Shown here piece after piece: positions 16,622 through 52,633 of a DNA stretch of 64,000 nt (position 1 is its first letter; every line of letters begins with the position of its first letter). Both the position numbers and the translations under genes were made by a program. Source of the DNA: Escherichia coli (GTDB taxonomy: Bacteria; Pseudomonadota; Gammaproteobacteria; Enterobacterales; Enterobacteriaceae); the NCBI RefSeq assembly GCF_016026235.1, contig NZ_CP065613.1. One strand, given 5' to 3'. The notes under the pieces are model-generated. The model had not been told where the DNA came from, searched no databases, and saw only the letters and a list, made by a program, of their open reading frames with translations.

Positions 16622-19600
16622 TACCGGTATGCTCCACTTAACCGGCCACCATCACGGGCCTGCTGTTGCATAAAGTCCGCGGCCGCTTTTTTCCCGAGGT
16701 CATAAACCACCTTCAGGGCAGCCGGACCTATCTGCCCGTTCGTGCCATCGTTATTGATCTCAATGTTGTACTGCGGGGCAAACATCACCATGCCTGAACC
16801 ACCAGTATCCGCCACAACCCCAGCTTACCATCAGCACCGCGACGCAGTGGCAGAATGGCTTCAGGTCCCGCTTCCCCCATCACACCCGCGCCTTTTGCAA
16901 AAGCAAAAAACGTCGGACGGTTAACCACCGTGCCACTGTAGCGACTCAAATCAGCAGACTGGTAAACACCGCCATCAGCATTAGTCGTGAAGCCGAATAA
17001 AGAACCGACGCCCTTTACCGCCTGCATCATGGCCATCTGTGCCATAATTCTGGCCATATCTGACAACAGGGAAGAGGTAAAGGATTTAAAATTCAGCTTA
17101 CCGGTGGTACAGAATGTCGCCAGTGCATTACCGGCACTGCTGAATGCCACTGTAAACATCTGTTCTACCGTTCCCGCCGCATTATCCGCATCCGCCGTAA
17201 AATTCTGAAACGCCCGCATGGCACCGTTTTTCCAGTCGCCCTGCGCCACTTCCAGTTCCTGCCAGTAGCGTTTGTTTTCATTCAGTTGTCGCTTCAGGCT
17301 CCCCTTCAGCACCTCCTCAGCCCTCCGGTAGTCCTCCGTCCCGTAAGTGCCTTTCTGGCGACTGTCATTCTCAAGCTGTTGCAACTGTTGCCGGTATTCC
17401 TGCCGGATGCGCAACTGTGCCTGGTAGCGCTGCCGCTGCTTATCCCCCATACCTGCAGTGGCAATATCCAGATTGTGCTGCTCACGCAGTGCACGTTCTT
17501 TGTCTGCCAGCTGGCTGGTCAGCTGAACCGTTTTTTTTCTCAGGTCGTTAAGCGCTGTCTGTTTCTGCAGCTCCTGCTGTTTCACATCCAGCAGCGTCAG
17601 CGCCTGAATCAGCTCATTCTTACGGGCCAGCACACTCTTTTCATCTGCCGTCAGCTTTTTCCCGCCCAGGTCGCTGATGCGCTGCTGCAGGGCCAGAAGC
17701 TGTTTATGCGCTTCAGTCATCCTTTCAGTGGCAATGCCTGCTGACTGTCTGGCAGCAGCAATCTGCCCTTCCACCTGTGCCTGCTGCTGACTGTACTGCA
17801 GCAATAACCGGGTGGCCTCATCATTACGGGTTGCCCGTGTATTTTTCTTAATGGCTTTTTCGTAACGTTCATTTTCACGCTGTATCGCCGCATCCCTGAC
17901 AGCCTGGTCGGCGTACTGCATGGCATTAATACGCGCAATTTCCCGCTGATGTCGTGCAGCTTCCGTTTCATTCATCCGGTTCAGCGCGGCATTTTCAGCA
18001 TTCCGGCGTTTCTGTTGCTCCTGGTAATTCCGTTCTGCCTGCGCTTTTGCATCCTGCAAATCCTTCCGGCGTTTTTTCTCCTGAAGATCGTTAAGACGCT
18101 GCTGATCGTACTCCACCTGTGTGGAGGCGTTTGTCCACGGATATTTTTTCGCGCGCTGAATTTTTTCCTGTAACGCATCAATCTGCGCATCCAGCGAGTC
18201 TTCACGACCAATATTCATGGCCGCATCCCAGAACTGCTTCCACCAGTCAGACAAGGTTTGCAGCGTACTACCCAGCGCATTGAGATTATTATCAATATCA
18301 GATGTGCGTTTACCGGTTTCCTCTGCCAGCGCAGACATGGCGATCCGGGCCGCATCACTGGACCGCCCCTGCTCCCCAAGGACGCGTATCTGCTCAAGCT
18401 GAGTGGCAGTCAAAAAATGCAGCGCATTGTCCAGCGCCTTCGCGGCATTTACAGGATCATCCTTCAGCCGCTTAAACTGATTTATGGTATCGCTGACCGA
18501 CTGGCCAACCGATCGCTCCATCTGTGCGGCAGCTTTCGCCACCATACCAATATCGTTTCCATGAAATGCCCCACTGCCCACCACCTGTGCCAGCGCACCG
18601 GCTGCCGCATGTTGCGTGATACCATTCCCGGATATGGCCCGGCTGAGTTTCCACAACTGCCCGACAGTGACACCGGCATAATGTCCCGTCAGCGCCAGCT
18701 GACGGTTAAATTCCTCGCCCTCCTTCCGGCCGTCATGCCAGGCTTTACCCAGACCCAGGACCGCCGCGACAAGTCCGCCAATAACGCCGCCAGTCATCAT
18801 GCCTTTCGGCGACATCAGTGCGCCTGTCCATCCGGCACGGTTAGCCAGCGTTATCCCGGATCCCCTCAGCGCACCAAAATTGCCGCGCGCCATCTGACTG
18901 ATTAACACCCCCAGCTCCCGCCGGGCTGCCGCACTTTTCAGCCCCAGCGAATGTGTGGCTTTTCCTGCCCGCTCCATTTTGCGGATATACACTTCTGCAG
19001 CACTGCTTACCCCCAGCTGAGCCGCCCTGGCGCGAAGCAACTCAGAAGACGACAGATTCTGGCGGGTTGCCTGCTCTTTAAGCTGGCGGATAAACGCCGC
19101 TTTCTGCCGGGTGGCCTGTTCCTCTGCCTGCGTCAGGGCACGGGTTTTCGCCGTGATCTCCGAAATCAGCGCCAGATAATCCTGCTGACCAACCCCGCCA
19201 CTGTTTCTGGCCTGTCGGATCTGCTGCTGAATACGCTGTAATTCCTGAAGCCCCGCACCGGCCTGTTTCACACTGTCAATCTGGCGATAAAAGGCGGCAG
19301 CCGCTTTATCCTGCGCCTCCGCCAGTGCCCTGGCCTGCGCCTGTTCCTCGCGCATTTTCTGGCTCAGCGCCTCCATGCGCTGGCGGGTTTTCTCCACCTC
19401 GCGGGCCATGCGTTCATGAGCCTGTGCGTTCTTCTCCACCGTCTGCGCATGGACGGATGCGGCTGTTGCAGCCGAAGAAGCCGCCTGCGTTGTCTGCCGG
19501 GCGGCCTGAGTCTGACGCTCCATAAAACGCTGCATACGGGCAGAAGACCGTTCTGCATCGCTGGCTGCACCATTCAGAAGGTTTTTGATACGGGGAATTT

Positions 19601-19661
19601 CATTTTTAAACTCTGCCGCATCAATCCCCAAATCAATGACCAGGTTGGCTATCTGGTCCAT
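16621..19661 (-). pseudogene. tail tape measure protein H, apparent frameshift near 3' end
   Basis: 968-aa ORF stops at 16785; conserved lambda H C-terminus (NNDGTNGQIGPAALK..DGG) is in a different frame in ORF 16621..16815. Confidence 0.75.
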
Positions 19662-19962
19662 AACGCACACCTCCGGAAATACCTTCCCCAAGATGCATCA
19701 GTTCTTCGTCCGTTCGCTCCGGTATCCCGTTCTCTTCCGGTAAAAGGCTGAAATCAGCCACCGCAGCATCGCTGCTGCCGGACACCATTCTCACGATCAA
19801 TGCCTTCAGCGAGGCAAACTGCGCATCCATCCACACATCACTGAAGCTCTGCATCCGGAAATAATCGCCCCACTCACCAAGCTCAGTGGCCGACATTTCC
19901 GACAGCATCCGCCGCCAGTCTGCCCGCCGGAACTCCCGGGCAAGCCGCATGACAAACTGCAT
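19633..19962 (-). CDS. T segment of G-T tail chaperone (made by -1 frameshift from G)
   Basis: Open frame with no own start directly after G, as in lambda G/GT. Confidence 0.65.
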   Translation of the reverse strand: MQFVMRLAREFRRADWRRMLSEMSATELGEWGDYFRMQSFSDVWMDAQFASLKALIVRMVSGSSDAAVADFSLLPEENGIPERTDEELMHLGEGISGGVRYGPDSQPGH

Positions 19963-20038
19963 TTCCCGCGTCAGGACTTTTCCGGCGTCAGCGCCTCATG
20001 ATCATCATCCCCGGCATTCTCAATGGTCCCCATACCGC

Positions 20039-20356
20039 TCAGCGACAGAACCCTCTCCGCCCCGCGCCCAGCGCATCATACGACCATGTTGTCATAATGG
20101 ATGCGCAAAGCGTCTCAACATCCTGAGACTGCTCAGCATTCCACAGTGAGCGGGAAACCAGCCAGGCATTGATATCCATTCCCATACGCAGAAAAGCAAT
20201 CTGTCGTTCAGCCTCCGGCAGTTCTCCCTCCTGTGCATCAAACTTTGCCGTTCGCTGCTGAACAAACGTCAGATATTCAATTCTCTGCAGCCCGGACAGC
20301 TCACTGAGCACCACGGACTGTTTTTCATAATTAAACGTATCCTGTTTCAGAAACAT
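20039..20356 (-). CDS. tail assembly chaperone G
   Basis: MFLKQDTF...VVLSELSGLQRIEYL resembles lambda G. Confidence 0.8.
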   Translation of the reverse strand: MFLKQDTFNYEKQSVVLSELSGLQRIEYLTFVQQRTAKFDAQEGELPEAERQIAFLRMGMDINAWLVSRSLWNAEQSQDVETLCASIMTTWSYDALGAGRRGFCR

Positions 20357-26346: not shown

Positions 26347-26564
26347 CAGAACCTCGCCAGTTTATAGCCCGGCGTCCCCCGTCGCCGCGCAGCCAGAGTC
26401 GCAAGGCGACGTTCCCACTCCTGCCGCCCCTGTCGGATCTCGGATAAGTTTTCCATGGTCATCTGCTGACCATTAAAAGTAATGGACTTTCCGTCCAGCA
26501 CTGCCATTTCCGCATTGATATAACGATGGATCATGGCTTCAATATCATTCTGGTTCACAACCAT
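26346..26564 (-). CDS. head-tail joining protein W-like
   Basis: Small ORF after terminase; C-terminus RRRGTPGYKL like lambda W. Confidence 0.65.
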   Translation of the reverse strand: MVVNQNDIEAMIHRYINAEMAVLDGKSITFNGQQMTMENLSEIRQGRQEWERRLATLAARRRGTPGYKLARF

Positions 26565-28657
26565 CCTCCGGAAGTCACCCATGGGTTTTCTTCATCAGGC
26601 ACCACTTTTTTTCGTTTCTTTTTTTTAACGGACACGGATACCGGCTCCGGCGAGGCTGACAGTCCGGCATCGTCCCTGACACGCTCCAGCCAGGTTTCCC
26701 TGCATGCCCATTCCGGCGCATCCGGCCACTGAATTTTCTCGTAACCATGCAGAATGACCAGAGCCTCGGCATACACCATCAGGTCAAAAGCTTCGTTGGC
26801 ACCTCGACCCGGCTTACTCCATTTCCCGTCACTGCTCCGCTCTTCATACGTCAGTTCGTCGTAAAACCAGCTCCCCAGCCAGTCAGGGAAATGCACATAG
26901 CCGGGACCTGGCGAGTCACGCCATAACGCGTTATTCACCCGGTCTTTCAGGGCATCCGTCTGAAGAAGCCAGAGCGGCACATCACCTGCGGCCTGCGCCC
27001 GTCGGCCCGTTCGTCCGGTGTTATCAGGGAATGTACGGGTGATCAGTTTTGCGCGCCGGATGCTGTCGCCCTTAAACAGGTAAATACGTTTACCAAGGCC
27101 ATCACGACGGCAACGACGCCAGAATTTATAGGCATTATCAGTGACCCCGTCTTCACCGCCGGAGTCCACCGCCATTGCCATCAGTCGCATTTGTTGAGAA
27201 GGATCGGAGGCCAACGGCCAGCTTTTATGAAAAACATCCGTCAGCAGGACATCCCAGTCCTCAGGATAACCAGCAGGATCAATTCGCAGGCTTTCTCCGT
27301 TGTTGTCACAACGCAATGACTGCGTGATGTTGTAACGATCAATAATCCAGCGTTCGCCACGGCAACCATAACCCGTTACCTGAACCACAAAACGGCGATG
27401 ACGTCCCGCCTGCACATCCACTGTCGCCGCCAGGAAATTAACACCATCCGGCACGCAGCGGGGAGGAACAGGCTCTGCCCGCTGCTCAAGCAGTTCACTT
27501 TTTCGTTGCTCCATGCTGGCGCGGGGAAGATAAGGTAATCCCCAGTCGGTGTTGATAACCGCCCTGAGTGTTTCTTCACTTCCGGTTGTCTCGTATTCCT
27601 GTTCTGCAGTAAGCAGTTTGTAAACGAGTTGCGAGAGTGTCTGGTAAGCAGCTGCCGGACCCTCCATCCAGAATGACGCAATACGTGAACGCCTGGGATC
27701 ACCATAACGACTGCCATCCGCATTGATGGATTCACCATCCCGCAACCAGACCCCACGTCCGTTCAGCTCACGTTTTTGTTCAGGCATAATCCGTCCTGAA
27801 CAGGAAGGACACTGAATATAAGCCGCCTCACTTGCCAGCACGGGATCGGCAATATCACGGAAACCAGCAACCACATCGCCGCAGGGCTGAAAATACTCAC
27901 CACAGTGTGGACAGGGCCAGTACCAGCGACGGCGATCGCCACGGTTATAGAGCGACAGTATCCCCGTGGTTGGTGGAGCCTCATGCGGTGAAGTCCGTCG
28001 CCATTTCACATCCTTCACATCCCTGCCGGGGGAACTCTCCACCAGCGTCATACCACTGGACATAAATGTTGTGGTACGTTTTGAGGCAAGAGAGAAAGCA
28101 TCCCCCTCACCATCAATATCTTCCGGAAAACGGTCATAATCCGTCAGCGCGACGCATTTATAATCTGATGAGGACATGATATTGACTGACGGCCAGCCGA
28201 TTTTCAGGTAGTTGCCAGCAAGGAATGTTCTGTCATAAACGTTGTTGTCATTTTTGTTCGGACTCAGGCGACTGACCACTTCCGGGCTGACGCGAAACGT
28301 TCTGGCGAGTCGTTTTTTGGAGTGTTCGCGGGCTTTTTCCTCCGTCATCTGAATGATCAGCATATCAGCAGGATCGCAAATCACGTTGTAAATCACCCAG
28401 CCGTCAATCAGGCCGATAGTCTTGCCGGTTCGTGCCGGGCCAACAAATATCACTGCGTCGTATTCACGCGAGGCCAGGCAGTTCATCGGCTCAATAACAT
28501 ACGGTGCCACCAGCGGATCCCACGGGACTGAGTTCCCTGCCCCCATGGGCACCCGCATATACTGAGCAACGGCATCAGCAACCCGCATTCGTCTTGGTGC
28601 GCGAAGGATATAACCTGAATCGGTTCGTGCTGCCTTTGCGGTTTCCTGATTCAGCAT
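26555..28657 (-). CDS. terminase large subunit (lambda A-like)
   Basis: 700 aa with Walker A FVGPARTGKT. Confidence 0.95.
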   Translation of the reverse strand: MLNQETAKAARTDSGYILRAPRRMRVADAVAQYMRVPMGAGNSVPWDPLVAPYVIEPMNCLASREYDAVIFVGPARTGKTIGLIDGWVIYNVICDPADMLIIQMTEEKAREHSKKRLARTFRVSPEVVSRLSPNKNDNNVYDRTFLAGNYLKIGWPSVNIMSSSDYKCVALTDYDRFPEDIDGEGDAFSLASKRTTTFMSSGMTLVESSPGRDVKDVKWRRTSPHEAPPTTGILSLYNRGDRRRWYWPCPHCGEYFQPCGDVVAGFRDIADPVLASEAAYIQCPSCSGRIMPEQKRELNGRGVWLRDGESINADGSRYGDPRRSRIASFWMEGPAAAYQTLSQLVYKLLTAEQEYETTGSEETLRAVINTDWGLPYLPRASMEQRKSELLEQRAEPVPPRCVPDGVNFLAATVDVQAGRHRRFVVQVTGYGCRGERWIIDRYNITQSLRCDNNGESLRIDPAGYPEDWDVLLTDVFHKSWPLASDPSQQMRLMAMAVDSGGEDGVTDNAYKFWRRCRRDGLGKRIYLFKGDSIRRAKLITRTFPDNTGRTGRRAQAAGDVPLWLLQTDALKDRVNNALWRDSPGPGYVHFPDWLGSWFYDELTYEERSSDGKWSKPGRGANEAFDLMVYAEALVILHGYEKIQWPDAPEWACRETWLERVRDDAGLSASPEPVSVSVKKKKRKKVVPDEENPWVTSGGWL

Positions 28658-33679: not shown

Positions 33680-34054
33680 GGAGTTTACTCACATCTGACA
33701 AAATCAATATAAACAGCCCCTCCGGAGAGGGGCTGGAGAGTGGCGCTATGTGCCATTGCATGGTGCCGGGTGCCTCCCGGTGAATTCAGTACCAGCACCT
33801 GAATCCGCGATTATCCCATATACCTACTCGCTGATTGCCCCTCCGCACAGGGGGATTCACCATGCCAGTTTCTTTTAACAAACTCCCCGCAAACCAGACA
33901 ACAGTCAACCGCCTGAATTGTGAAGTATTTAAAAATTTCTCCCGCTAACTGATACCCGGCTAACAGTCTGGCGTTTTCTTTTTCAGCAACGGGAAAGCAA
34001 CAACCCTGTTATCGTGTCGTCTGCTCTTCCTGATAAGCTAATGGCGGTTTGTGA

Positions 34055-34130
34055 TGGTGGCCCTTGCTGGATTTGAACCAGCGACCTGGCGATTATGAGT
34101 CGCTCGCTCTCACCACTGAGCTAAAGGGCC
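34055..34130 (-). tRNA. tRNA with CAU anticodon (Ile2-type or Met)
   Basis: 76-nt cloverleaf: acceptor GGCCCTT/AAGGGCC, T-loop TTCAAAT, encoded CCA; close to recalled E. coli ileX. Confidence 0.85.
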
Positions 34131-35466: not shown

Positions 35467-35723
35467 CAGCGCAGCACCTCCTGCACCAGTTTTTCAAACT
35501 TTCCGACTCTGGTTTCCAGCTCTGCCACACAGTCCACCAGCTCATCTACTGCTTTCTGTGCGCGATGCTTCGCCTGCATCAGTTCCCGAAGCGCGGGTAC
35601 CATATCTTTACGGATAGCATCTTTTGTTATGCCCGTTTTTTCGAGTTGTTCAGCATGACGCAGCATTTCCTGCGCGTGTTTACGCAATTGTTCAGGGGTA
35701 AAAGTCATTGTCTGGTTGTTCAA
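35466..35723 (-). CDS. hypothetical coiled-coil protein
   Basis: 85 aa between helicase and rusA. Confidence 0.5.
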   Translation of the reverse strand: MNNQTMTFTPEQLRKHAQEMLRHAEQLEKTGITKDAIRKDMVPALRELMQAKHRAQKAVDELVDCVAELETRVGKFEKLVQEVLR

Positions 35724-36753
35724 AAGAAACGCTCCATCTTACTGCTGTCAGTTCGTTTATTACTGTATCTGCGCGGATTGCCGGGCTTCATGGGAGTGGA
35801 AAGCACCCGTGCACTTTCCTGGTCCACAGGCAGAAAATGTCCGTTATAAAAACGCCGGTAAATCGTTCCCAGAGAACCGTTACGTTGTTTCGTGATATTG
35901 ATTTCTGCGATGCCCCTGGCCTGCGTATCCGGGTTGTACACTTCATCCCTGTAAAGCATCAGAATGATGTCTGCATCCGCCTCTATTTCTCCGGAATTTT
36001 TCAGGTCTGAGTTCATGGGACGTTTATTGGGTCTGGACTCCACACCGCGGGAGAGCTGGCTCAGCGCAATCAACGGAAAACCACCGGATTTTGCCAGGCC
36101 TTTAAGCCCCTTTGAGATTTCACCCACGGCAAGGTCATGACGCCCCGTGGTTCGGGTTTTTATCAGCCCGAGATAATCAACCACCACCAGCGCCGTTTCC
36201 GGATGTTTAATCAGATGGTGTTTCGTTGTTGCGCATATCTCATCAATGGTCAGGTTCGCCTGGTCCACCATCCAGATATTGCGCCCGGTCATCCGCCCCA
36301 CCCCTTGTGAGAAACGCGCCCAGTCTTCATCTTCAAAGTGAGCCACAGATTTCAGGCGTGATACTGGCATCCCTCCAGCCGCAGACACCATACGTTCACC
36401 AATCTGGATGTTCGCCATCTCCATGGTGAACAGAAGCACACCATGCCCCTGCTCAGTCACCTTGTCGATGATGTCCAGCGCAAGTTCGGTTTTCCCCATC
36501 GAAGGACGAGCCGCAATAAATACCAGGTCGCCGGGCTCCATGCCGCCTGTTTTTGCGTCCAGTTCATCAATACCGGTCATCAACGTCCTGGATTTCTCCA
36601 GTCCCTGATTCCGGCATTCAACACGCTCAACCACCTCCGGAAGCACATCATCAATATGTACCGACTGAATAACGCCCTTTTCCGTCGACAATGAGGCCAT
36701 CATGTTCTGTGCATCCTTAAGAGCATCTTCAGCTGCTTCACAGGTATGCGCAT
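35720..36753 (-). pseudogene. DnaB-like replicative helicase, C-terminal part (split by IS600)
   Basis: Walker A AARPSMGKTELAL; first 16 residues of ORF come from the IS600 end. Confidence 0.8.
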
Positions 36754-36817
36754 TGAGGTAGCCTGAGTTTAACGGACACTCCTTCCTGAAATAGAATGGC
36801 ATCAGAAGGAGCTAATA

Positions 36818-37120
36818 ATGAGCAGAAAAAACCAACGTTACTCTAAAGAGTTCAAAGCCGAAGCTGTCAGAACGGTTCTTGAAAATCAACTTTCGATCAG
36901 TGAAGGCGCTTCCCGATTATCCCTTCCTGAAGGCACTTTAGGACAATGGGTTACCGCCGCCAGAAAAGGGCTCGGTACTCCTGGTTCCCGCACGGTGGCT
37001 GAACTGGAATCTGAAATTCTGCAACTGCGTAAGGCGTTAAATGAAGCTCGCCTTGAGCGAGATATATTAAAAAAAGCAACAGCGTATTTTGCACAGGAGT
37101 CGCTGAAAAATACGCGTTAA
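36818..37120 (+). CDS. IS600 OrfA
   Basis: 100 aa HTH protein MSRKNQRYSKEFKAEAV. Confidence 0.9.
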   Translation: MSRKNQRYSKEFKAEAVRTVLENQLSISEGASRLSLPEGTLGQWVTAARKGLGTPGSRTVAELESEILQLRKALNEARLERDILKKATAYFAQESLKNTR

Positions 37121-37155
37121 TCGAACAATGGCGACAACAATTTCCCATTGAAGCG

Positions 37156-37974
37156 ATGTGTCAGGTATTTGGTGTATCCAGGAGCGGTTATTACAACTGG
37201 GTACAGCATGAACCCTCAGACAGAAAACAAAGTGATGAGCGGCTAAAACTGGAGATTAAGGTGGCACATATCCGCACTCGCGAAACATATGGAACCCGGC
37301 GGCTCCAGACGGAGCTGGCAGAGAATGGCATCATCGTTGGTCGTGACCGACTGGCACGTCTTCGTAAGGAGCTAAGGCTACGCTGTAAGCAGAAACGCAA
37401 GTTCAGAGCGACTACGAACCCGAACCACAATCTGCCAGTTGCGCCAAATCTGCTGAACCAGACGTTCGCTCCTACAGCACCAAATCAGGTCTGGGTGGCG
37501 GACCTGACGTATGTTGCCACACAGGAGGGATGGTTGTACCTCGCTGGCATCAAAGATGTTTATACGTGCGAAATTGTCGGCTACGCCATGGGAGAGCGCA
37601 TGACAAAAGAGCTGACAGGTAAAGCCCTGTTTATGGCGCTCAGGAGCCAGCGCCCACCTGCCGGGCTAATCCACCACTCTGATCGAGGTTCACAGTACTG
37701 CGCATACGATTACCGGGTCATACAGGAGCAGTCTGGTCTGAAAACATCAATGTCGCGTAAAGGTAACTGTTACGACAACGCTCCGATGGAAAGCTTCTGG
37801 GGAACGCTGAAAAATGAGAGCCTGAGCCACTATCGTTTTAATAACCGGGATGAAGCCATCTCAGTAATACGGGAATACATTGAGATTTTCTACAATCGTC
37901 AGCGTCGTCACTCTCGTCTGGGGAATATCTCCCCGGCAGCCTTCAGGGAAAAATATCATCAGATGGCTGCTTAA
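37156..37974 (+). CDS. IS600 OrfB (DDE transposase; made as OrfAB by -1 frameshift)
   Basis: 272-aa ORF; A-run AAAAAAAG near orfA 3' end. Confidence 0.9.
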   Translation: MCQVFGVSRSGYYNWVQHEPSDRKQSDERLKLEIKVAHIRTRETYGTRRLQTELAENGIIVGRDRLARLRKELRLRCKQKRKFRATTNPNHNLPVAPNLLNQTFAPTAPNQVWVADLTYVATQEGWLYLAGIKDVYTCEIVGYAMGERMTKELTGKALFMALRSQRPPAGLIHHSDRGSQYCAYDYRVIQEQSGLKTSMSRKGNCYDNAPMESFWGTLKNESLSHYRFNNRDEAISVIREYIEIFYNRQRRHSRLGNISPAAFREKYHQMAA

Positions 37975-38017
37975 AAAAAGAACAAATGGTAGTGTCCGCT
38001 ATTGCCAGTACACCTCA

Positions 38018-38378
38018 CATCGCGTAATTTCTGTAATGCCTCGTTCAGTGTTTTTTCTGCATCGCGCAGTGCGGCATTGCGCCGCAACGCTGCAACATAG
38101 TGCTCCAGTGAAGACTTCACCCAGGTTTTACGCCCGGTATCAGTAATCACCGGGGCAAGTTCTGGCATCTCATTGCACAACAGCACAGGATCAATCACGC
38201 CGGACACACGGGCCTGTCTGCAGATGCCTGTGTAGATATCCCGGTACGGTCGTACAGAAAAAACGTCCGCCGGTAGTGTGGCCAGAATATCCATCACTTC
38301 AGGATCTGCTCCGCGCAGAAAGAACGCGCCGATGACAGCGCCTTCAAGGTCATCGTTACGCCATACTGGAGTTGTCAT
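38018..38378 (-). pseudogene. DnaB-like helicase, N-terminal part
   Basis: ORF 37971..38378 minus IS-derived tail. Confidence 0.7.
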
Positions 38379-40952: not shown

Positions 40953-41264
40953 GATGGCAGCCTCTTTGGTGATTTTTAATAACTCACCACCAAAGCTTCT
41001 CACGGCAATAGGTGGTGAGACGTACAGGGGTGAGAAACCGGTCACCAAAGAACCCGGCCCAACCGAAGTTGGCCCTGCACGCCCCACCATAATTTGGGCG
41101 TAATGCTGCTCATGACACAAAAAAACCGCAAGAGCGCGGTTGTGCGCTTTGGTGAATTCCGGGTTCTCACGCCCGGCACCCGCTTTATAAGGTGCGGAGA
41201 CAGTGTAACGTCCCGAAATTGCAGAATCAATATCAAAATGTTGTAGCTGTGGACAACGCGAAGC

Positions 41265-47022: not shown

Positions 47023-47828
47023 AAAAAACAATTGCGCTTGTTTTCGCGGTCAGTCTGGCTGTCTTCGGACTTGTAGGTTGCGATCGCGTTGAACCAGGTA
47101 ATGTGGGTATCAAAGTCAACAAACTGGGCGACGACAAAGGTGTCGGTGAAGTGGTCGGTGTTGGTCGCTACTGGACTGGCTGGAATACTGAAGTTTACAT
47201 TTTCCCGACCTTCAAGCAAATGAAGACCTACGATGAACCGTTCAGTTTCCAGATGAGTGACGGCACAACCATCGGCTATCACATCGGCGTGGCCTACAAA
47301 GTTGATCCATCCAAAGTTACCACGGTGTTTCAGACTTACCGCAAAGGCGTGGATGACATTACCAACACCGACCTGCGCCAGAAGATCGCCGACGCACTCA
47401 ATCGGCTGGCCAGCAAAATGACCACCGACAAATTTATTGACGGCGGCAAGTCTGAACTACTGGATGCCGCACTTAAAGACATTCAGGAAGAGATGACACC
47501 CATCGGCATTCAGGTAATGAGCCTCTCTTATGTAGGTAAACCGGAATACCCTCCAACCGTTATCGACAGCATTAACGCCAAAGTCACGGCAAACCAGAAA
47601 ACCCTGCAGCGCGAACAGGAAGTCAAGCAACGTGAAGCGGAGGCCAACATGCTACGTGCGGAAGCTGCCGGACAGGCTGATGCCATTCGAACAAAAGCCC
47701 AGGCAGAAGCCGATGCCATTCGTTTACGCGGCGAAGCTCTACGCCAGAACCCAGGCGTCATGGAGCTGGAAGCCATCAACAAGTGGAACGGTACACTGCC
47801 GCAATACATGACCAGTGGTGTGAGGTAG
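47019..47828 (+). CDS. SPFH/band-7 family lipoprotein, last codons replaced by IS600
   Basis: Lipobox LVGC; SPFH core; Ala/Glu/Arg-rich coiled coil; final residues VR encoded by IS600 left end. Confidence 0.8.
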   Translation: MKKTIALVFAVSLAVFGLVGCDRVEPGNVGIKVNKLGDDKGVGEVVGVGRYWTGWNTEVYIFPTFKQMKTYDEPFSFQMSDGTTIGYHIGVAYKVDPSKVTTVFQTYRKGVDDITNTDLRQKIADALNRLASKMTTDKFIDGGKSELLDAALKDIQEEMTPIGIQVMSLSYVGKPEYPPTVIDSINAKVTANQKTLQREQEVKQREAEANMLRAEAAGQADAIRTKAQAEADAIRLRGEALRQNPGVMELEAINKWNGTLPQYMTSGVR

Positions 47829-47884
47829 CCTGAGTTTAACGGACACTCCTTCCTGAAATAGAATGGCATCAGAAGGAGCTAATA

Positions 47885-48187
47885 ATGAGCAGAAAAACCC
47901 AACGTTACTCTAAAGAGTTCAAAGCCGAAGCTGTCAGAACGGTTCTTGAAAATCAACTTTCGATCAGTGAAGGCGCTTCCCGATTATCTCTTCCTGAAGG
48001 CACTTTAGGACAATGGGTTACCGCCGCCAGAAAAGGGCTCGGTACTCCTGGTTCCCGCACGGTGGCTGAACTGGAATCTGAAATTCTGCAACTGCGTAAG
48101 GCGTTAAATGAAGCTCGCCTTGAGCGAGATATATTAAAAAAAGCAACAGCGTATTTTGCACAGGAGTCGCTGAAAAATACGCGTTAA
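47885..48187 (+). CDS. IS600 OrfA
   Basis: Near-identical to copy 1. Confidence 0.9.
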   Translation: MSRKTQRYSKEFKAEAVRTVLENQLSISEGASRLSLPEGTLGQWVTAARKGLGTPGSRTVAELESEILQLRKALNEARLERDILKKATAYFAQESLKNTR

Positions 48188-48222
48188 TCGAACAATGGCG
48201 ACAACAATTTCCCATTGAAGCG

Positions 48223-49041
48223 ATGTGTCAGGTATTTGGTGTATCCAGGAGCGGTTATTACAACTGGGTACAGCATGAACCCTCAGACAGAAAACAAAGT
48301 GATGAGCGGCTAAAACTGGAGATTAAGGTGGCACATATCCGCACTCGCGAAACATATGGAACCCGGCGGCTCCAGACGGAGCTGGCAGAGAATGGCATCA
48401 TCGTTGGTCGTGACCGACTGGCACGTCTTCGTAAGGAGCTAAGGCTACGCTGTAAGCAGAAACGCAAGTTCAGAGCGACTACGAACCCGAACCACAATCT
48501 GCCAGTTGCGCCAAATCTGCTGAACCAGACGTTCGCTCCTACAGCACCAAATCAGGTCTGGGTGGCGGACCTGACGTATGTTGCCACACAGGAGGGATGG
48601 TTGTACCTCGCTGGCATCAAAGATGTTTATACGTGCGAAATTGTCGGCTACGCCATGGGAGAGCGCATGACAAAAGAGCTGACAGGTAAAGCCCTGTTTA
48701 TGGCGCTCAGGAGCCAGCGCCCACCTGCCGGGCTAATCCACCACTCTGATCGAGGTTCACAGTACTGCGCATACGATTACCGGGTCATACAGGAGCAGTC
48801 TGGTCTGAAAACATCAATGTCGCGTAAAGGTAACTGTTACGACAACGCTCCGATGGAAAGCTTCTGGGGAACGCTGAAAAATGAGAGCCTGAGCCACTAT
48901 CGTTTTAATAACCGGGATGAAGCCATCTCAGTAATACGGGAATACATTGAGATTTTCTACAATCGTCAGCGTCGTCACTCTCGTCTGGGGAATATCTCCC
49001 CGGCAGCCTTCAGGGAAAAATATCATCAGATGGCTGCTTAA
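48223..49041 (+). CDS. IS600 OrfB
   Basis: Identical to copy 1. Confidence 0.9.
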   Translation: MCQVFGVSRSGYYNWVQHEPSDRKQSDERLKLEIKVAHIRTRETYGTRRLQTELAENGIIVGRDRLARLRKELRLRCKQKRKFRATTNPNHNLPVAPNLLNQTFAPTAPNQVWVADLTYVATQEGWLYLAGIKDVYTCEIVGYAMGERMTKELTGKALFMALRSQRPPAGLIHHSDRGSQYCAYDYRVIQEQSGLKTSMSRKGNCYDNAPMESFWGTLKNESLSHYRFNNRDEAISVIREYIEIFYNRQRRHSRLGNISPAAFREKYHQMAA

Positions 49042-49150
49042 AAAAAGAACAAATGGTAGTGTCCGCTATTGCCAGTACACCTCAGTGCCAATACACCATT
49101 TATCCAGATTAAATAACTTATATGCCCGGCAGGCCGCCGGGCTAAGGGAA

Positions 49151-50252: not shown

Positions 50253-51425
50253 ATGGATAAAGTCAAATATCCAACAGGCGTCGAAAACCACGGTGGCACA
50301 TTACGCATCTGGTTTAATTTTAAAGGTAAACGTGTCAGGGAAAATCTTGGTGTCCCTGACACTGCCAAGAACAGGAAGATCGCCGGAGAGCTGCGGACAT
50401 CTGTATGTTTTGCCATTCGTACAGGAAATTTTGATTATGCTGCGCAGTTCCCTGACTCTCCTAACCTCAAGGCTTTTGGGGTAAATAAAAAAGAAATTAC
50501 GGTGAAAGAACTTGAAGAAAAATGGCTGGATCTGAAACGAATGGAAATCTCTGCAAATGCATTCAATCGCTATGAATCCATTGCAAGGATGATGGTTCCG
50601 AAGATTGGTGGCAACCGACTGGTATCAGCAGTGACCAAAGAGGAATTGCTGTATATCAGGAAAGATTTGCTGACCGGATACCAAAATCCAACAAAAGGTA
50701 AAGCTCCAGTAAAAGGACGAAGCGTTGTCACAGTAAATTATTACATGACAACAATCGCTGGAATGTTTCAGTTTGCTGCAGATCACGGTTACATAGAAGC
50801 AAATCCCTTCGAGGGAATTAAGCCTCTTAAAAGAGCCAGGGCAGAACCAGATCCGCTAACTCGTGACGAATTTATTCGCCTGATAGATGCTTGCCGGCAT
50901 CAGCAGACAAAAAACCTGTGGTCATTGGCTGTGTACACAGGAATGCGTCATGGTGAACTGGTCTCCCTGGCCTGGGAAGATATCGATCTGAAAGCAGGAA
51001 CAATTACTATCAGGCGCAATTATACGAAACTCGGTGAGTTCACTCTACCTAAAACTGAAGCAAGTACAAACAGGGTTGTGCATCTTATCCAGCCCGCTAT
51101 CAGTGTCCTGAAAAATCAGGCTGAAATGACAAGACTGGGTAAGCAGCACAACATCAAGGTTCAACTACGTGAATATGGACGTTCAGTAAATCATGAATGT
51201 ACTTTCGTATTTAACCCCCAGGTGGTTAGAAAAAGCAAACAGGTAGGTTTTATCTACAAGGTAGATTCCATTGGCGACTCATGGGAAACAGCCATTAAAC
51301 GTGCAGGCATCAGGCATCGAAAGGCATACCAGTCACGACACACTTATGCGTGCTGGTCATTATCTGCCGGAGCAAATCCAAGCTTCATTGCCAGCCAGAT
51401 GGGGCATGCAAGTGAGGTAGCCTGA
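50253..51425 (+). pseudogene. int: tyrosine integrase, 3' end interrupted by IS600
   Basis: GGAGG RBS; catalytic region through HTYACWSLSAGANPSFIASQMGH then IS600 from 51413. Confidence 0.85.
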
Positions 51426-51476
51426 GTTTAACGGACACTCCTTCCTGAAATAGAATGGCATCAGAAGGAGCTAATA

Positions 51477-51779
51477 ATGAGCAGAAAAACCCAACGTTAC
51501 TCTAAAGAGTTCAAAGCCGAAGCTGTCAGAACGGTTCTTGAAAATCAACTTTCGATCAGTGAAGGCGCTTCCCGATTATCCCTTCCTGAAGGCACTTTAG
51601 GACAATGGGTTACCGCCGCCAGAAAAGGGCTCGGTACTCCTGGCTCCCGCACGGTGGCTGAACTGGAATCTGAAATTCTGCAACTGCGTAAGGCGTTAAA
51701 TGAAGCTCGCCTTGAGCGAGATATATTAAAAAAAGCAACAGCGTATTTTGCACAGGAGTCGCTGAAAAATACGCGTTAA
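51477..51779 (+). CDS. IS600 OrfA
   Basis: As copy 2. Confidence 0.9.
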   Translation: MSRKTQRYSKEFKAEAVRTVLENQLSISEGASRLSLPEGTLGQWVTAARKGLGTPGSRTVAELESEILQLRKALNEARLERDILKKATAYFAQESLKNTR

Positions 51780-51814
51780 TCGAACAATGGCGACAACAAT
51801 TTCCCATTGAAGCG

Positions 51815-52633
51815 ATGTGTCAGGTATTTGGTGTATCCAGGAGCGGTTATTACAACTGGGTACAGCATGAACCCTCAGACAGAAAACAAAGTGATGAGCG
51901 GCTAAAACTGGAGATTAAGGTGGCACATATCCGCACTCGCGAAACATATGGAACCCGGCGGCTCCAGACGGAGCTGGCAGAGAATGGCATCATCGTTGGT
52001 CGTGACCGACTGGCACGTCTTCGTAAGGAGCTAAGGCTACGCTGTAAGCAGAAACGCAAGTTCAGAGCGACTACGAACCCGAACCACAATCTGCCAGTTG
52101 CGCCAAATCTGCTGAACCAGACGTTCGCTCCTACAGCACCAAATCAGGTCTGGGTGGCGGACCTGACGTATGTTGCCACACAGGAGGGATGGTTGTACCT
52201 CGCTGGCATCAAAGATGTTTATACGTGCGAAATTGTCGGCTACGCCATGGGAGAGCGCATGACAAAAGAGCTGACAGGTAAAGCCCTGTTTATGGCGCTC
52301 AGGAGCCAGCGCCCACCTGCCGGGCTAATCCACCACTCTGATCGAGGTTCACAGTACTGCGCATACGATTACCGGGTCATACAGGAGCAGTTTGGTCTGA
52401 AAACATCAATGTCGCGTAAAGGTAACTGTTACGACAACGCTCCGATGGAAAGCTTCTGGGGAACGCTGAAAAATGAGAGCCTGAGCCACTATCGTTTTAA
52501 TAACCGGGATGAAGCCATCTCAGTAATACGGGAATACATTGAGATTTTCTACAATCGTCAGCGTCGTCACTCTCGTCTGGGGAATATCTCCCCGGCAGCC
52601 TTCAGGGAAAAATATCATCAGATGGCTGCTTAA
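51815..52633 (+). CDS. IS600 OrfB
   Basis: One substitution (F for S) versus other copies. Confidence 0.9.
   Translation: MCQVFGVSRSGYYNWVQHEPSDRKQSDERLKLEIKVAHIRTRETYGTRRLQTELAENGIIVGRDRLARLRKELRLRCKQKRKFRATTNPNHNLPVAPNLLNQTFAPTAPNQVWVADLTYVATQEGWLYLAGIKDVYTCEIVGYAMGERMTKELTGKALFMALRSQRPPAGLIHHSDRGSQYCAYDYRVIQEQFGLKTSMSRKGNCYDNAPMESFWGTLKNESLSHYRFNNRDEAISVIREYIEIFYNRQRRHSRLGNISPAAFREKYHQMAA

What the first reader, a model, noticed from the sequence alone, without database searches (positions are those of the whole stretch)
36818..37974. Programmed -1 frameshifting signals in IS600 and in the G/T tail chaperone
IS600 orfA ends shortly after an A-run (AAAAAAAG) with orfB open in the -1 frame, as expected for IS3-family OrfAB fusion. 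The tail chaperone G (20039-20356) is followed by a start-less T frame (19633-19962), as in lambda G/GT.
Basis: established knowledge. Interest (0 to 1): 0.2.

Follow-up and report, generated by a model that had tools for sequence, protein, structure and literature searches.

The report
IS600 frameshift real; tail-chaperone frameshift broken
The insertion sequence IS600 carries its well-known ribosome-slipping signal, so that part is ordinary, but the phage tail-chaperone gene named in the same finding has lost one base and can no longer reach its own slipping site.

Summary
The finding bundles two loci. (1) IS600, 36754-38017: confirmed and already known. orfA (100 aa) and orfB (-1 frame) overlap by 61 nt. 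The overlap holds an A7 run followed by a 9-bp hairpin 6 nt downstream, and the predicted fusion is 385 aa. The in-phase heptamer is A_AAA_AAA; the G belongs to the next codon. Sharma et al. 2014 list IS600 as a true -1 frameshift case with the same 86/385/100 aa figures, and RefSeq annotates it "programmed frameshift". Two more intact copies lie at 47821-49084 and 51413-52676. (2) G/T, minus strand: the genes are correctly identified, but the claimed arrangement is not there. The G ORF 20039-20356 is a pseudogene. A 1-nt deletion in a G5 run (now GGGG, 20060-20063) ends it 55 nt before the ancestral slip site G_GAA_AAG (19977-19983). The T frame is +1, not -1, to this ORF and does not overlap it. 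Intact relatives have G5 and would give a 241-aa GT fusion that aligns with lambda GT across the shift site. The deletion recurs in six assemblies, so it is a real mutation. The prophage is decaying: the tape-measure gene is also frameshifted and IS600 interrupts the helicase and integrase genes. Low interest.

The parts
36754..38017 (+). IS600 copy A, complete 1264-bp element with imperfect terminal inverted repeats (TGAGGT...ACCTCA)
   Evidence: 99-100% identical to elements annotated 'IS3-like element IS600 family transposase'. The ends were read.
36751..36753 (.). Left copy of the 3-bp target-site duplication CAT (right copy at 38018-38020)
   Evidence: Flanks printed. The uninterrupted helicase gene in E. 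coli CFSAN029787 shows the empty site.
36818..37120 (+). orfA, 100 aa, helix-turn-helix protein (frame 0)
   Evidence: ORF list. Pfam HTH_Tnp_1, E 1.3e-20.
37057..37974 (+). orfB reading frame (-1 relative to orfA), DDE/rve catalytic domain. The first ATG is at 37156. The overlap with orfA is 37057-37117.
   Evidence: Three-frame translation. Pfam rve E 1.1e-25, plus HTH_21, rve_2 and rve_3.
37069..37075 (+). Slippery heptamer A_AAA_AAA, in phase with orfA (TTA AAA AAA GCA). The G at 37076 starts the next codon.
   Evidence: Sharma et al. 2014 (PMC4066793) Table S4 lists cluster A_AAA_AAA_1 = IS600 as [true].
37082..37115 (+). Predicted stimulatory hairpin. The 9-bp stem is GCGUAUUUU (37082-37090) paired with AAAAUACGC (37107-37115), 6 nt after the heptamer. 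Its 3' arm abuts the orfA stop codon.
   Evidence: MFE fold z = -2.63. Hairpin dG -11.1 kcal/mol, 0.33 kcal/mol/nt, against 0.11 for sliding windows downstream.
47821..49084 (+). IS600 copy B, TSD GTG, slip run 48136-48142, intact orfA/orfB. Inserted at the 3' end of an SPFH/Band_7 gene.
51413..52676 (+). IS600 copy C, TSD AAG, slip run 51728-51734, intact orfA/orfB. Inserted in the prophage tyrosine integrase gene.
20039..20356 (-). Truncated tail assembly chaperone G pseudogene: 99 authentic codons, 6 out-of-frame codons, then a stop.
   Evidence: Pfam Phage_TAC_2, profile positions 1-101 of 126. Alignment to intact relatives. PGAP flags the identical sequence as 'frameshifted'.
20060..20063 (-). 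GGGG run, the site of the 1-nt deletion. The ancestral state is GGGGG.
   Evidence: Alignment A1. Run lengths counted in 37 loci. 0 IMG/VR contigs carry G4 against 24 with G5.
19971..20059 (-). Orphaned 3' end of ancestral G (29 codons plus the stop at 19971-19973). It now lies in the -1 frame of the truncated ORF.
   Evidence: Frame-2 translation AERVLSLSGMGTIENAGDDDHEALTPEKS*, identical to the C-terminus of the intact G of E. coli O121 201805972.
19977..19983 (-). Ancestral G/T slip site G_GAA_AAG (an A_AAG tetramer preceded by a near-cognate P-site codon). It is homologous in position to lambda G_GGA_AAG. Ribosomes translating the truncated G never reach it.
   Evidence: It is the only shift-prone motif in the 22-nt G/T overlap, 19974-19995. 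The lysine at the site aligns with the lambda GT shift-site lysine. The site is conserved in 31 of 37 fetched loci.
19633..19995 (-). T reading frame (Phage_tail_T), open from 19995, with an internal ATG at 19962. It is -1 to ancestral G and +1 to the truncated G ORF.
16818..16821 (-). Second G5-to-G4 deletion, in the tape-measure gene (ORF 16785-19691). The last 66 codons are out of frame.
   Evidence: tblastn with the mEp460 tape-measure protein splits at 16815-16821. Alignment. Run lengths.

Best explanation
Two unrelated recoding sites, one live and one dead.

(1) IS600 uses IS3-family -1 programmed ribosomal frameshifting. Ribosomes translating orfA carry tRNA-Lys in the P and A sites on A_AAA_AAA (37069-37075). 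They are slowed by a hairpin 6 nt downstream. A fraction slip back one base and continue in orfB. This gives the 385-aa OrfAB transposase (helix-turn-helix domain plus DDE domain). The rest terminate and give the 100-aa OrfA regulator. The anatomy is shown here. The slipping itself rests on Sharma et al. 2014, who cite unpublished data.

(2) The prophage G/T pair descends from a lambda-type G/GT frameshift system with slip site G_GAA_AAG. In this prophage a 1-nt deletion in a G5 run ends G 29 codons early and puts the slip site out of reach. G is therefore a pseudogene and no GT fusion is expected. This is one of several lesions in a decaying, IS-ridden prophage.
For: IS600:
- It is 99-100% identical to annotated IS600 elements.
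- RefSeq gives near-identical (about 99%) copies a two-piece CDS of the same 1157-nt span, marked 'programmed frameshift'.
- It has the expected HTH_Tnp_1 and rve domains, TG...CA ends and 3-bp duplications at all three copies.
- The hairpin has dG -11.1 kcal/mol and a 6-nt spacer, which meets the empirical rules of Sharma et al..
- PMC4066793 Tables S4/S6 list IS600 as [true] with 86/385/100 aa, the same figures I derived.
- In the same paper A_AAA_AAA gave 0.4% frameshifting without a stimulator and 24.8% with the IS3 pseudoknot.

G/T:
- There is a single in-gene indel relative to phages mEp460 and PhiR55_1.
- G5 is present in every intact relative examined and in 24 of 24 IMG/VR contigs. 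G4 is found only in the window and five other assemblies.
- The identical sequence is flagged 'frameshifted' by PGAP.
- The exact 105-aa truncated product occurs on four further contigs, including a Logan assembly of a public sequencing run.
- The restored GT (241 aa) aligns with lambda GT (E 9e-42) straight through the shift site.
- The tape-measure gene is also frameshifted.
- The helicase and integrase genes are split by IS600.
Against: - No protein data exist for this element here, and the published IS600 proof is cited only as unpublished data.
- A7 runs can also cause RNA polymerase slippage, which would give the same fusion.
- No covariation support for the hairpin could be obtained. 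Relatives are either at least 94% identical in DNA or at most 45% identical in OrfA.
- For G, both tail-gene lesions lie in homopolymers, the classic place for sequencing errors. The recurrence in six assemblies argues against that.
- Low-level slippage on the remaining in-phase G_GGG could still give traces of full-length G.
Confidence: 0.9

Rival explanations
1. The IS600 OrfAB fusion arises mainly from transcriptional slippage. RNA polymerase adds an extra A on the A7 template run, so some mRNAs carry A8 and are read straight through into orfB.
For: AAAAAAA is under-represented in all three phases in E. coli genes. Sharma et al. attribute this partly to transcriptional slippage. An A insertion gives exactly the same 385-aa product (inference).
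Against: From established knowledge, efficient slippage by E. coli RNA polymerase needs longer runs, about 9 or more. Sharma et al. state that IS600 frameshifting is stimulated by a downstream stem-loop, which points to a ribosomal mechanism. A well-placed hairpin is present.
Confidence: 0.07
2. The G4 run in G, and the one in the tape-measure gene, are homopolymer sequencing errors. The real genome has G5 and a working G/GT frameshift.
For: Both lesions are single-base losses in G5 runs. The matching E. coli CFSAN029787 prophage carries many PGAP 'frameshifted' flags.
Against: The same G4 allele in G occurs in the window and five other assemblies. They differ from the window by about 1-2.6% nearby, apart from the 841-nt G/T stretch that is identical in CFSAN029787. 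One of the five, the Logan assembly ERR5961568, aligns without a single gap over 4644 nt. The distribution is nested: G4 at both sites occurs only in the window and CFSAN029787.
Confidence: 0.04
3. The truncated G is rescued by translation. A -1 slip on the in-phase G_GGG, followed by the rare codons CGG and AGA, restores the wild-type G sequence. The normal A_AAG shift then still makes some GT.
For: G_GGG gave the highest stimulator-free -1 frameshifting of all 16 tetramers, 0.315%. A slip there recreates exactly the ancestral protein (derived).
Against: The expected yield is about 0.3% of G and far less GT. The tape-measure gene needs the same rescue. The helicase and integrase are destroyed by IS600, so nothing selects for tail assembly.
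Confidence: 0.03

Closest known systems
IS600 (IS3 family, IS3 group) OrfA/OrfAB -1 programmed frameshift; cluster A_AAA_AAA_1 of Sharma et al. 2014, NAR 42:7210
   Same: The sequence is 99-100% identical. It has the same heptamer, the same 86-aa, 100-aa and 385-aa products, and a downstream stem-loop.
   Different: Nothing of substance. Copy A has one OrfA substitution (N5 instead of T5) compared with copies B and C.
IS911 / IS3 / IS150 frameshift signals (A_AAA_AAG or A_AAG plus a hairpin or pseudoknot)
   Same: The gene layout is the same, the -1 shift is onto lysine codons, and a structure lies 5-8 nt downstream with its 3' side near the orfA stop.
   Different: IS600 uses A_AAA_AAA in phase. 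In E. coli this is less shift-prone than A_AAA_AAG with the weaker IS911 stimulator (0.8% against 4.3%). No upstream Shine-Dalgarno-like stimulator was scored for IS600 (N/Y in Table S4).
Bacteriophage lambda G/GT tail assembly chaperone frameshift (G_GGA_AAG)
   Same: The genes sit in the same position between the major tail protein and the tape-measure gene. They belong to the same Pfam families. The GT fusion of intact relatives aligns with lambda GT at 33% identity straight through the shift-site lysine.
   Different: The lineage motif is G_GAA_AAG. The P-site codon is GAA, which re-pairs with GGA through a central G-U pair, so the heptamer is imperfect. In this window the G frame is broken upstream, so the site is non-functional.
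Rfam RF01497 ALIL pseudoknot (frameshift stimulator of some IS3-family elements)
   Same: It gives a weak full-length match that starts exactly at the hairpin, 37081-37183.
   Different: The score is 14.3 bits against a gathering score of 50. The match rests on the shared coding sequence GC.UAUUUUGC.CAG, and its helices contain several non-standard pairs. IS600 is not a member.

Membership tests
IS3 family / IS600 | Two consecutive, partly overlapping ORFs with orfB in the -1 frame | tested here: met
   orfA is 36818-37120 and the orfB frame is 37057-37974, a 61-nt overlap.
IS3 family / IS600 | OrfA helix-turn-helix domain and OrfB DDE (rve) catalytic domain | tested here: met
   Pfam HTH_Tnp_1 E 1.3e-20 and rve E 1.1e-25.
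IS3 family / IS600 | Imperfect terminal inverted repeats ending 5'-TG...CA-3' and a 3-bp target duplication | tested here: met
   The ends are TGAGGT.../...ACCTCA. The duplications are CAT, GTG and AAG at the three copies.
IS3 family / IS600 | Near-identity to the named element | tested here: met
   99-100% identity over 1264 bp to many annotated IS600 copies.
IS3 family / IS600 | In-phase slippery motif inside the overlap, plus a downstream RNA structure | tested here: met
   A_AAA_AAA at 37069-37075. The hairpin 37082-37115 has dG -11.1 kcal/mol and a 6-nt spacer.
IS3 family / IS600 | OrfAB fusion protein actually produced | not testable with these tools
   This rests on PMC4066793, which marks IS600 [true] and cites unpublished data.
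Lambda-type G/GT tail chaperone frameshift | Two ORFs between the major tail protein and tape-measure genes, belonging to the G and T families | tested here: met
   Phage_TAC_2 E 3.5e-34 and Phage_tail_T E 4.8e-15. Synteny with mEp460.
Lambda-type G/GT tail chaperone frameshift | T frame is -1 to G and overlaps its 3' end | tested here: not met
   In the window T is +1 to the G ORF. A 43-nt gap (19996-20038) separates the G stop from the point where the T frame opens. The feature is met in intact relatives.
Lambda-type G/GT tail chaperone frameshift | Slippery sequence in phase with G within the overlap | tested here: not met
   G_GAA_AAG at 19977-19983 lies 55 nt beyond the premature stop and in another frame. 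It is in phase in relatives that have G5.
Lambda-type G/GT tail chaperone frameshift | GT fusion protein produced at a low fixed ratio | not testable with these tools
   No expression data are available. The lambda ratio of about 30:1 comes from PMC5009743.

The most novel reading that the evidence does not exclude
Both tail-gene lesions (G and tape measure) are G5-to-G4 deletions that leave an in-phase G_GGG. A -1 ribosomal slip there would recreate exactly the wild-type protein. In G the slip site is followed by the rare codons CGG and AGA. The most novel reading not excluded is that this prophage lineage keeps low-level 'translational correction' of both genes. Some G, GT (by two successive -1 shifts) and tape-measure protein would then still be made.
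Probability: 0.03. Interest if true: 0.35.

Novelty: already known. Interest (0 to 1): 0.1.

Why it matters
It matters little beyond correct annotation. The IS600 signal is a textbook IS3-family recoding site that pipelines already annotate. The useful correction is that the G/T pair in this prophage should be annotated as a frameshifted pseudogene plus an orphaned slip site, not as a working programmed frameshift. A start-less or short ORF downstream of a chaperone gene is not enough to infer recoding. Frame phase and overlap must be checked. The locus also shows prophage decay in an Escherichia/Shigella-type genome: three IS600 insertions and two homopolymer deletions.

Tried and rejected
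- Covariation test of the IS600 hairpin: not feasible. DNA relatives are at least 94% identical, and the next OrfA relatives are at most 45% identical in protein.
- Rfam: no family reaches its threshold at either site. The ALIL pseudoknot hit (14.3 bits against 50) is explained by coding-sequence similarity.
- Exact look-up of the predicted 385-aa OrfAB: absent from the protein collection. I assume this is because gene callers do not join frames.
- Downstream structure at the G/T site: the fold is no better than shuffles (z = -0.84). Lambda is not known to need a stimulator there (from memory), so this decides nothing.
- Source of the window: not found. E. coli CFSAN029787 shares the G/T region at 100% identity but has an intact helicase gene and 97-98% identity elsewhere. 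Four other contigs with the same truncated G are about 99% identical.
- Compensating indel elsewhere in G: rejected. The other indels against mEp460 lie upstream of the start codon.

Full report
**What was claimed.** The finding joins two loci. The first is an A-run frameshift signal in IS600; the stated coordinates 36818-37974 cover only this one. The second is a lambda-like G/GT tail-chaperone frameshift at about 19633-20356 on the minus strand.

**IS600: anatomy.**
- The element spans 36754-38017 (1264 bp). It has imperfect inverted repeats ending TG...CA and a 3-bp target duplication CAT.
- orfA (36818-37120, 100 aa) matches HTH_Tnp_1. The downstream frame matches rve, rve_2, rve_3 and HTH_21.
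- The orfB frame is -1 to orfA. It opens at 37057, after a TGA at 37054-37056, so the two frames overlap by 61 nt.
- The run AAAAAAAG lies at 37069-37076, inside that overlap.
- orfA reads TTA AAA AAA GCA. The in-phase X_XXY_YYZ heptamer is therefore A_AAA_AAA (37069-37075), and the G starts the next codon.
- Slipping back one base gives a 385-aa OrfAB (...DILKK|SNSVFCTG...), with 86 residues encoded up to the end of the motif.
- Six nucleotides after the heptamer a 9-bp stem forms: GCGUAUUUU (37082-37090) with AAAAUACGC (37107-37115). Its 3' arm abuts the orfA stop codon.
- The 101-nt region folds better than shuffles (z = -2.63).
- The hairpin has dG -11.1 kcal/mol, or 0.33 kcal/mol/nt, against 0.11 for sliding windows downstream. 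This satisfies the empirical IS3-family rules of Sharma et al. (rules quoted).

**IS600: comparison with what is known.**
- The element is 99-100% identical to hundreds of copies annotated 'IS3-like element IS600 family transposase'.
- RefSeq gives near-identical (about 99%) copies a two-piece CDS of the same 1157-nt span, marked 'programmed frameshift'.
- Sharma et al. 2014 (PMC4066793) list cluster A_AAA_AAA_1 as 'Fam IS3/grpIS3/IS600 [true]', with 517 genes, no upstream Shine-Dalgarno-like sequence and a downstream structure. Their product sizes are 86, 385 and 100 aa, the same as mine.
- The text calls IS600 a proven case of stem-loop-stimulated -1 frameshifting, citing unpublished data.
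- In their assays A_AAA_AAA gave 0.41% frameshifting alone, 0.82% with the IS911 stimulator and 24.8% with the IS3 pseudoknot. A_AAA_AAG gave 0.29%, 4.3% and 39%.
- This half of the finding is correct and already known.
- The window holds two further intact copies, at 47821-49084 and 51413-52676. They differ from copy A by 2-3 bases, have their own 3-bp duplications, and keep the slip run and hairpin unchanged.

**G/T: what is really there.**
- The ORFs exist and belong to the right families. The G ORF matches Phage_TAC_2 only over profile positions 1-101 of 126. The T ORF matches Phage_tail_T.
- Three-frame translation of the minus strand shows that the arrangement is not lambda-like.
- The G ORF (frame 0) stops at 20039-20041.
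- The T frame is frame +1, not -1. It is closed by stop codons until 19996-19998, so it neither overlaps G nor can be reached by a -1 shift.
- Between them, in frame -1, lies an open stretch encoding AERVLSLSGMGTIENAGDDDHEALTPEKS*.
- Alignment with phages mEp460 and PhiR55_1 explains this. The window has GGGG (20060-20063) where they have GGGGG. This is the only indel inside the gene.
- With G5 restored, G is 128 aa and ends at 19971-19973. T is then -1 to it, with a 22-nt overlap (19974-19995).
- The only shift-prone motif in that overlap is G_GAA_AAG (19977-19983). It is an A_AAG tetramer preceded by GAA, whose tRNA can re-pair with GGA through a central G-U pair.
- I built the 241-aa GT from the intact allele of E. 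coli O121 201805972. It aligns with lambda GT (E 9e-42, 33% identity) straight through the shift site, lysine to lysine.
- The ancestral pair was therefore a genuine lambda-type G/GT system with a slightly non-canonical heptamer. In this window G is truncated after 99 authentic codons and the slip site is orphaned, 55 nt beyond the premature stop.

**Is the deletion real?**
- All 17 phage records that match are six bases longer.
- 24 IMG/VR contigs carry the G5 pattern and none carries G4.
- The slip-site sequence is conserved in 31 of the 37 loci fetched.
- G4 occurs in the window, in E. coli CFSAN029787, and on four contigs that encode exactly the same 105-aa product. In CFSAN029787 the 841-nt stretch is identical and PGAP marks gpG 'frameshifted'.
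- These assemblies differ from the window by about 1-2.6% nearby. One of them, the Logan assembly ERR5961568, aligns without any gap over 4644 nt.
- A one-off homopolymer sequencing error is therefore unlikely. I treat this as an inherited pseudogenising mutation.

**Context: a decaying prophage.**
- The tape-measure gene carries a second G5-to-G4 deletion (16818-16821). It puts the last 66 codons out of frame. Among the loci examined, only CFSAN029787 shares it.
- IS600 copy A splits the DnaB-like replicative helicase gene: the N-terminal domain is at 37974-38378 and the C-terminal domain at 35723-36802.
- Copy C cuts the tyrosine integrase at position 158 of the 172-position Pfam profile.
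- Copy B cuts the end of an SPFH-domain gene.
- Nothing in this prophage selects for a working G/GT ratio any longer.

**Mechanism and rivals.**
- For IS600 I commit to tandem tRNA-Lys slippage on A_AAA_AAA stimulated by the hairpin. The anatomy is shown; the slipping is taken from the literature.
- Transcriptional slippage on A7 is a minor rival (about 0.07).
- For G, sequencing error (about 0.04) and leaky -1 correction on the remaining in-phase G_GGG (about 0.03) are not excluded. In Sharma's tetramer table G_GGG gave 0.315% without a stimulator, the highest of the sixteen. Such a slip would recreate the wild-type protein exactly.

**Verdict.** Nothing here is new. Interest is low (0.1).

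Noticed in passing
window 35720-38378 (minus-strand gene), IS600 at 36754-38017: IS600 copy A interrupts the prophage DnaB-like replicative helicase gene between its N-terminal and C-terminal domains. The same gene is intact in the related prophage of E. coli CFSAN029787.
   Followed up: yes
One cuts the 3' end of an SPFH/Band_7 gene. The other cuts the prophage tyrosine integrase near its C-terminus, probably removing the catalytic tyrosine (inference), which would lock the prophage in next to yecE.
   Followed up: partly
window 16818-16821 (minus strand), tape-measure ORF 16785-19691: The tape-measure gene has its own 1-nt deletion in a G5 run, so its last 66 codons are out of frame. Both tail-gene lesions are G5-to-G4 deletions that leave an in-phase G_GGG.
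   Followed up: yes
L012 (E. coli WCHEC005784, NZ_CP028578.2 4176005-4177251): A full-length IS600 with a 17-bp deletion that removes most of the A-run and most of the 5' stem arm. It fuses orfA and orfB into one in-frame 379-aa ORF, annotated without a frameshift. 457 E. coli records fall in the same 90-95% identity band, but I inspected only this one.
   Followed up: partly
L013 (E. coli B REL606, IS600 next to a BCCT transporter gene): This IS600 copy keeps the A7 run but has four substitutions at and within the 5' arm of the hairpin, with no compensating changes. The predicted hairpin stability falls from -11.1 to -4.2 kcal/mol, which suggests a weakened frameshift signal.
   Followed up: partly
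window 26605-26626 (minus strand), 3' end of ORF 26555-28657: A 700-aa ORF that I took, untested, for a terminase large subunit ends in a lysine-rich tail (VKKKKRKKV). The tail is encoded by A8G and A7G runs and includes an in-phase A_AAA_AAG. The -1 frame stays open for only about 17 more codons, so this is probably fortuitous.
   Followed up: partly
window 59811-60118, 33705-33894, 41008-41195, 55832-55874, 34058-34130: Rfam matches above the gathering score: MicL sRNA, STnc100, C4 antisense RNA, isrK, ES036 and one tRNA. These are ordinary features of the host chromosome and of lambdoid or P4-like prophages.
   Followed up: no
E. coli K-12 genomes (one search hits H254-H260): Many E. coli genomes carry IS600 fragments that end or begin within a few bases of the slip site, at query positions 119-121 or 118 (window about 37077-37080). 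I did not pursue why truncation points cluster there.
   Followed up: no
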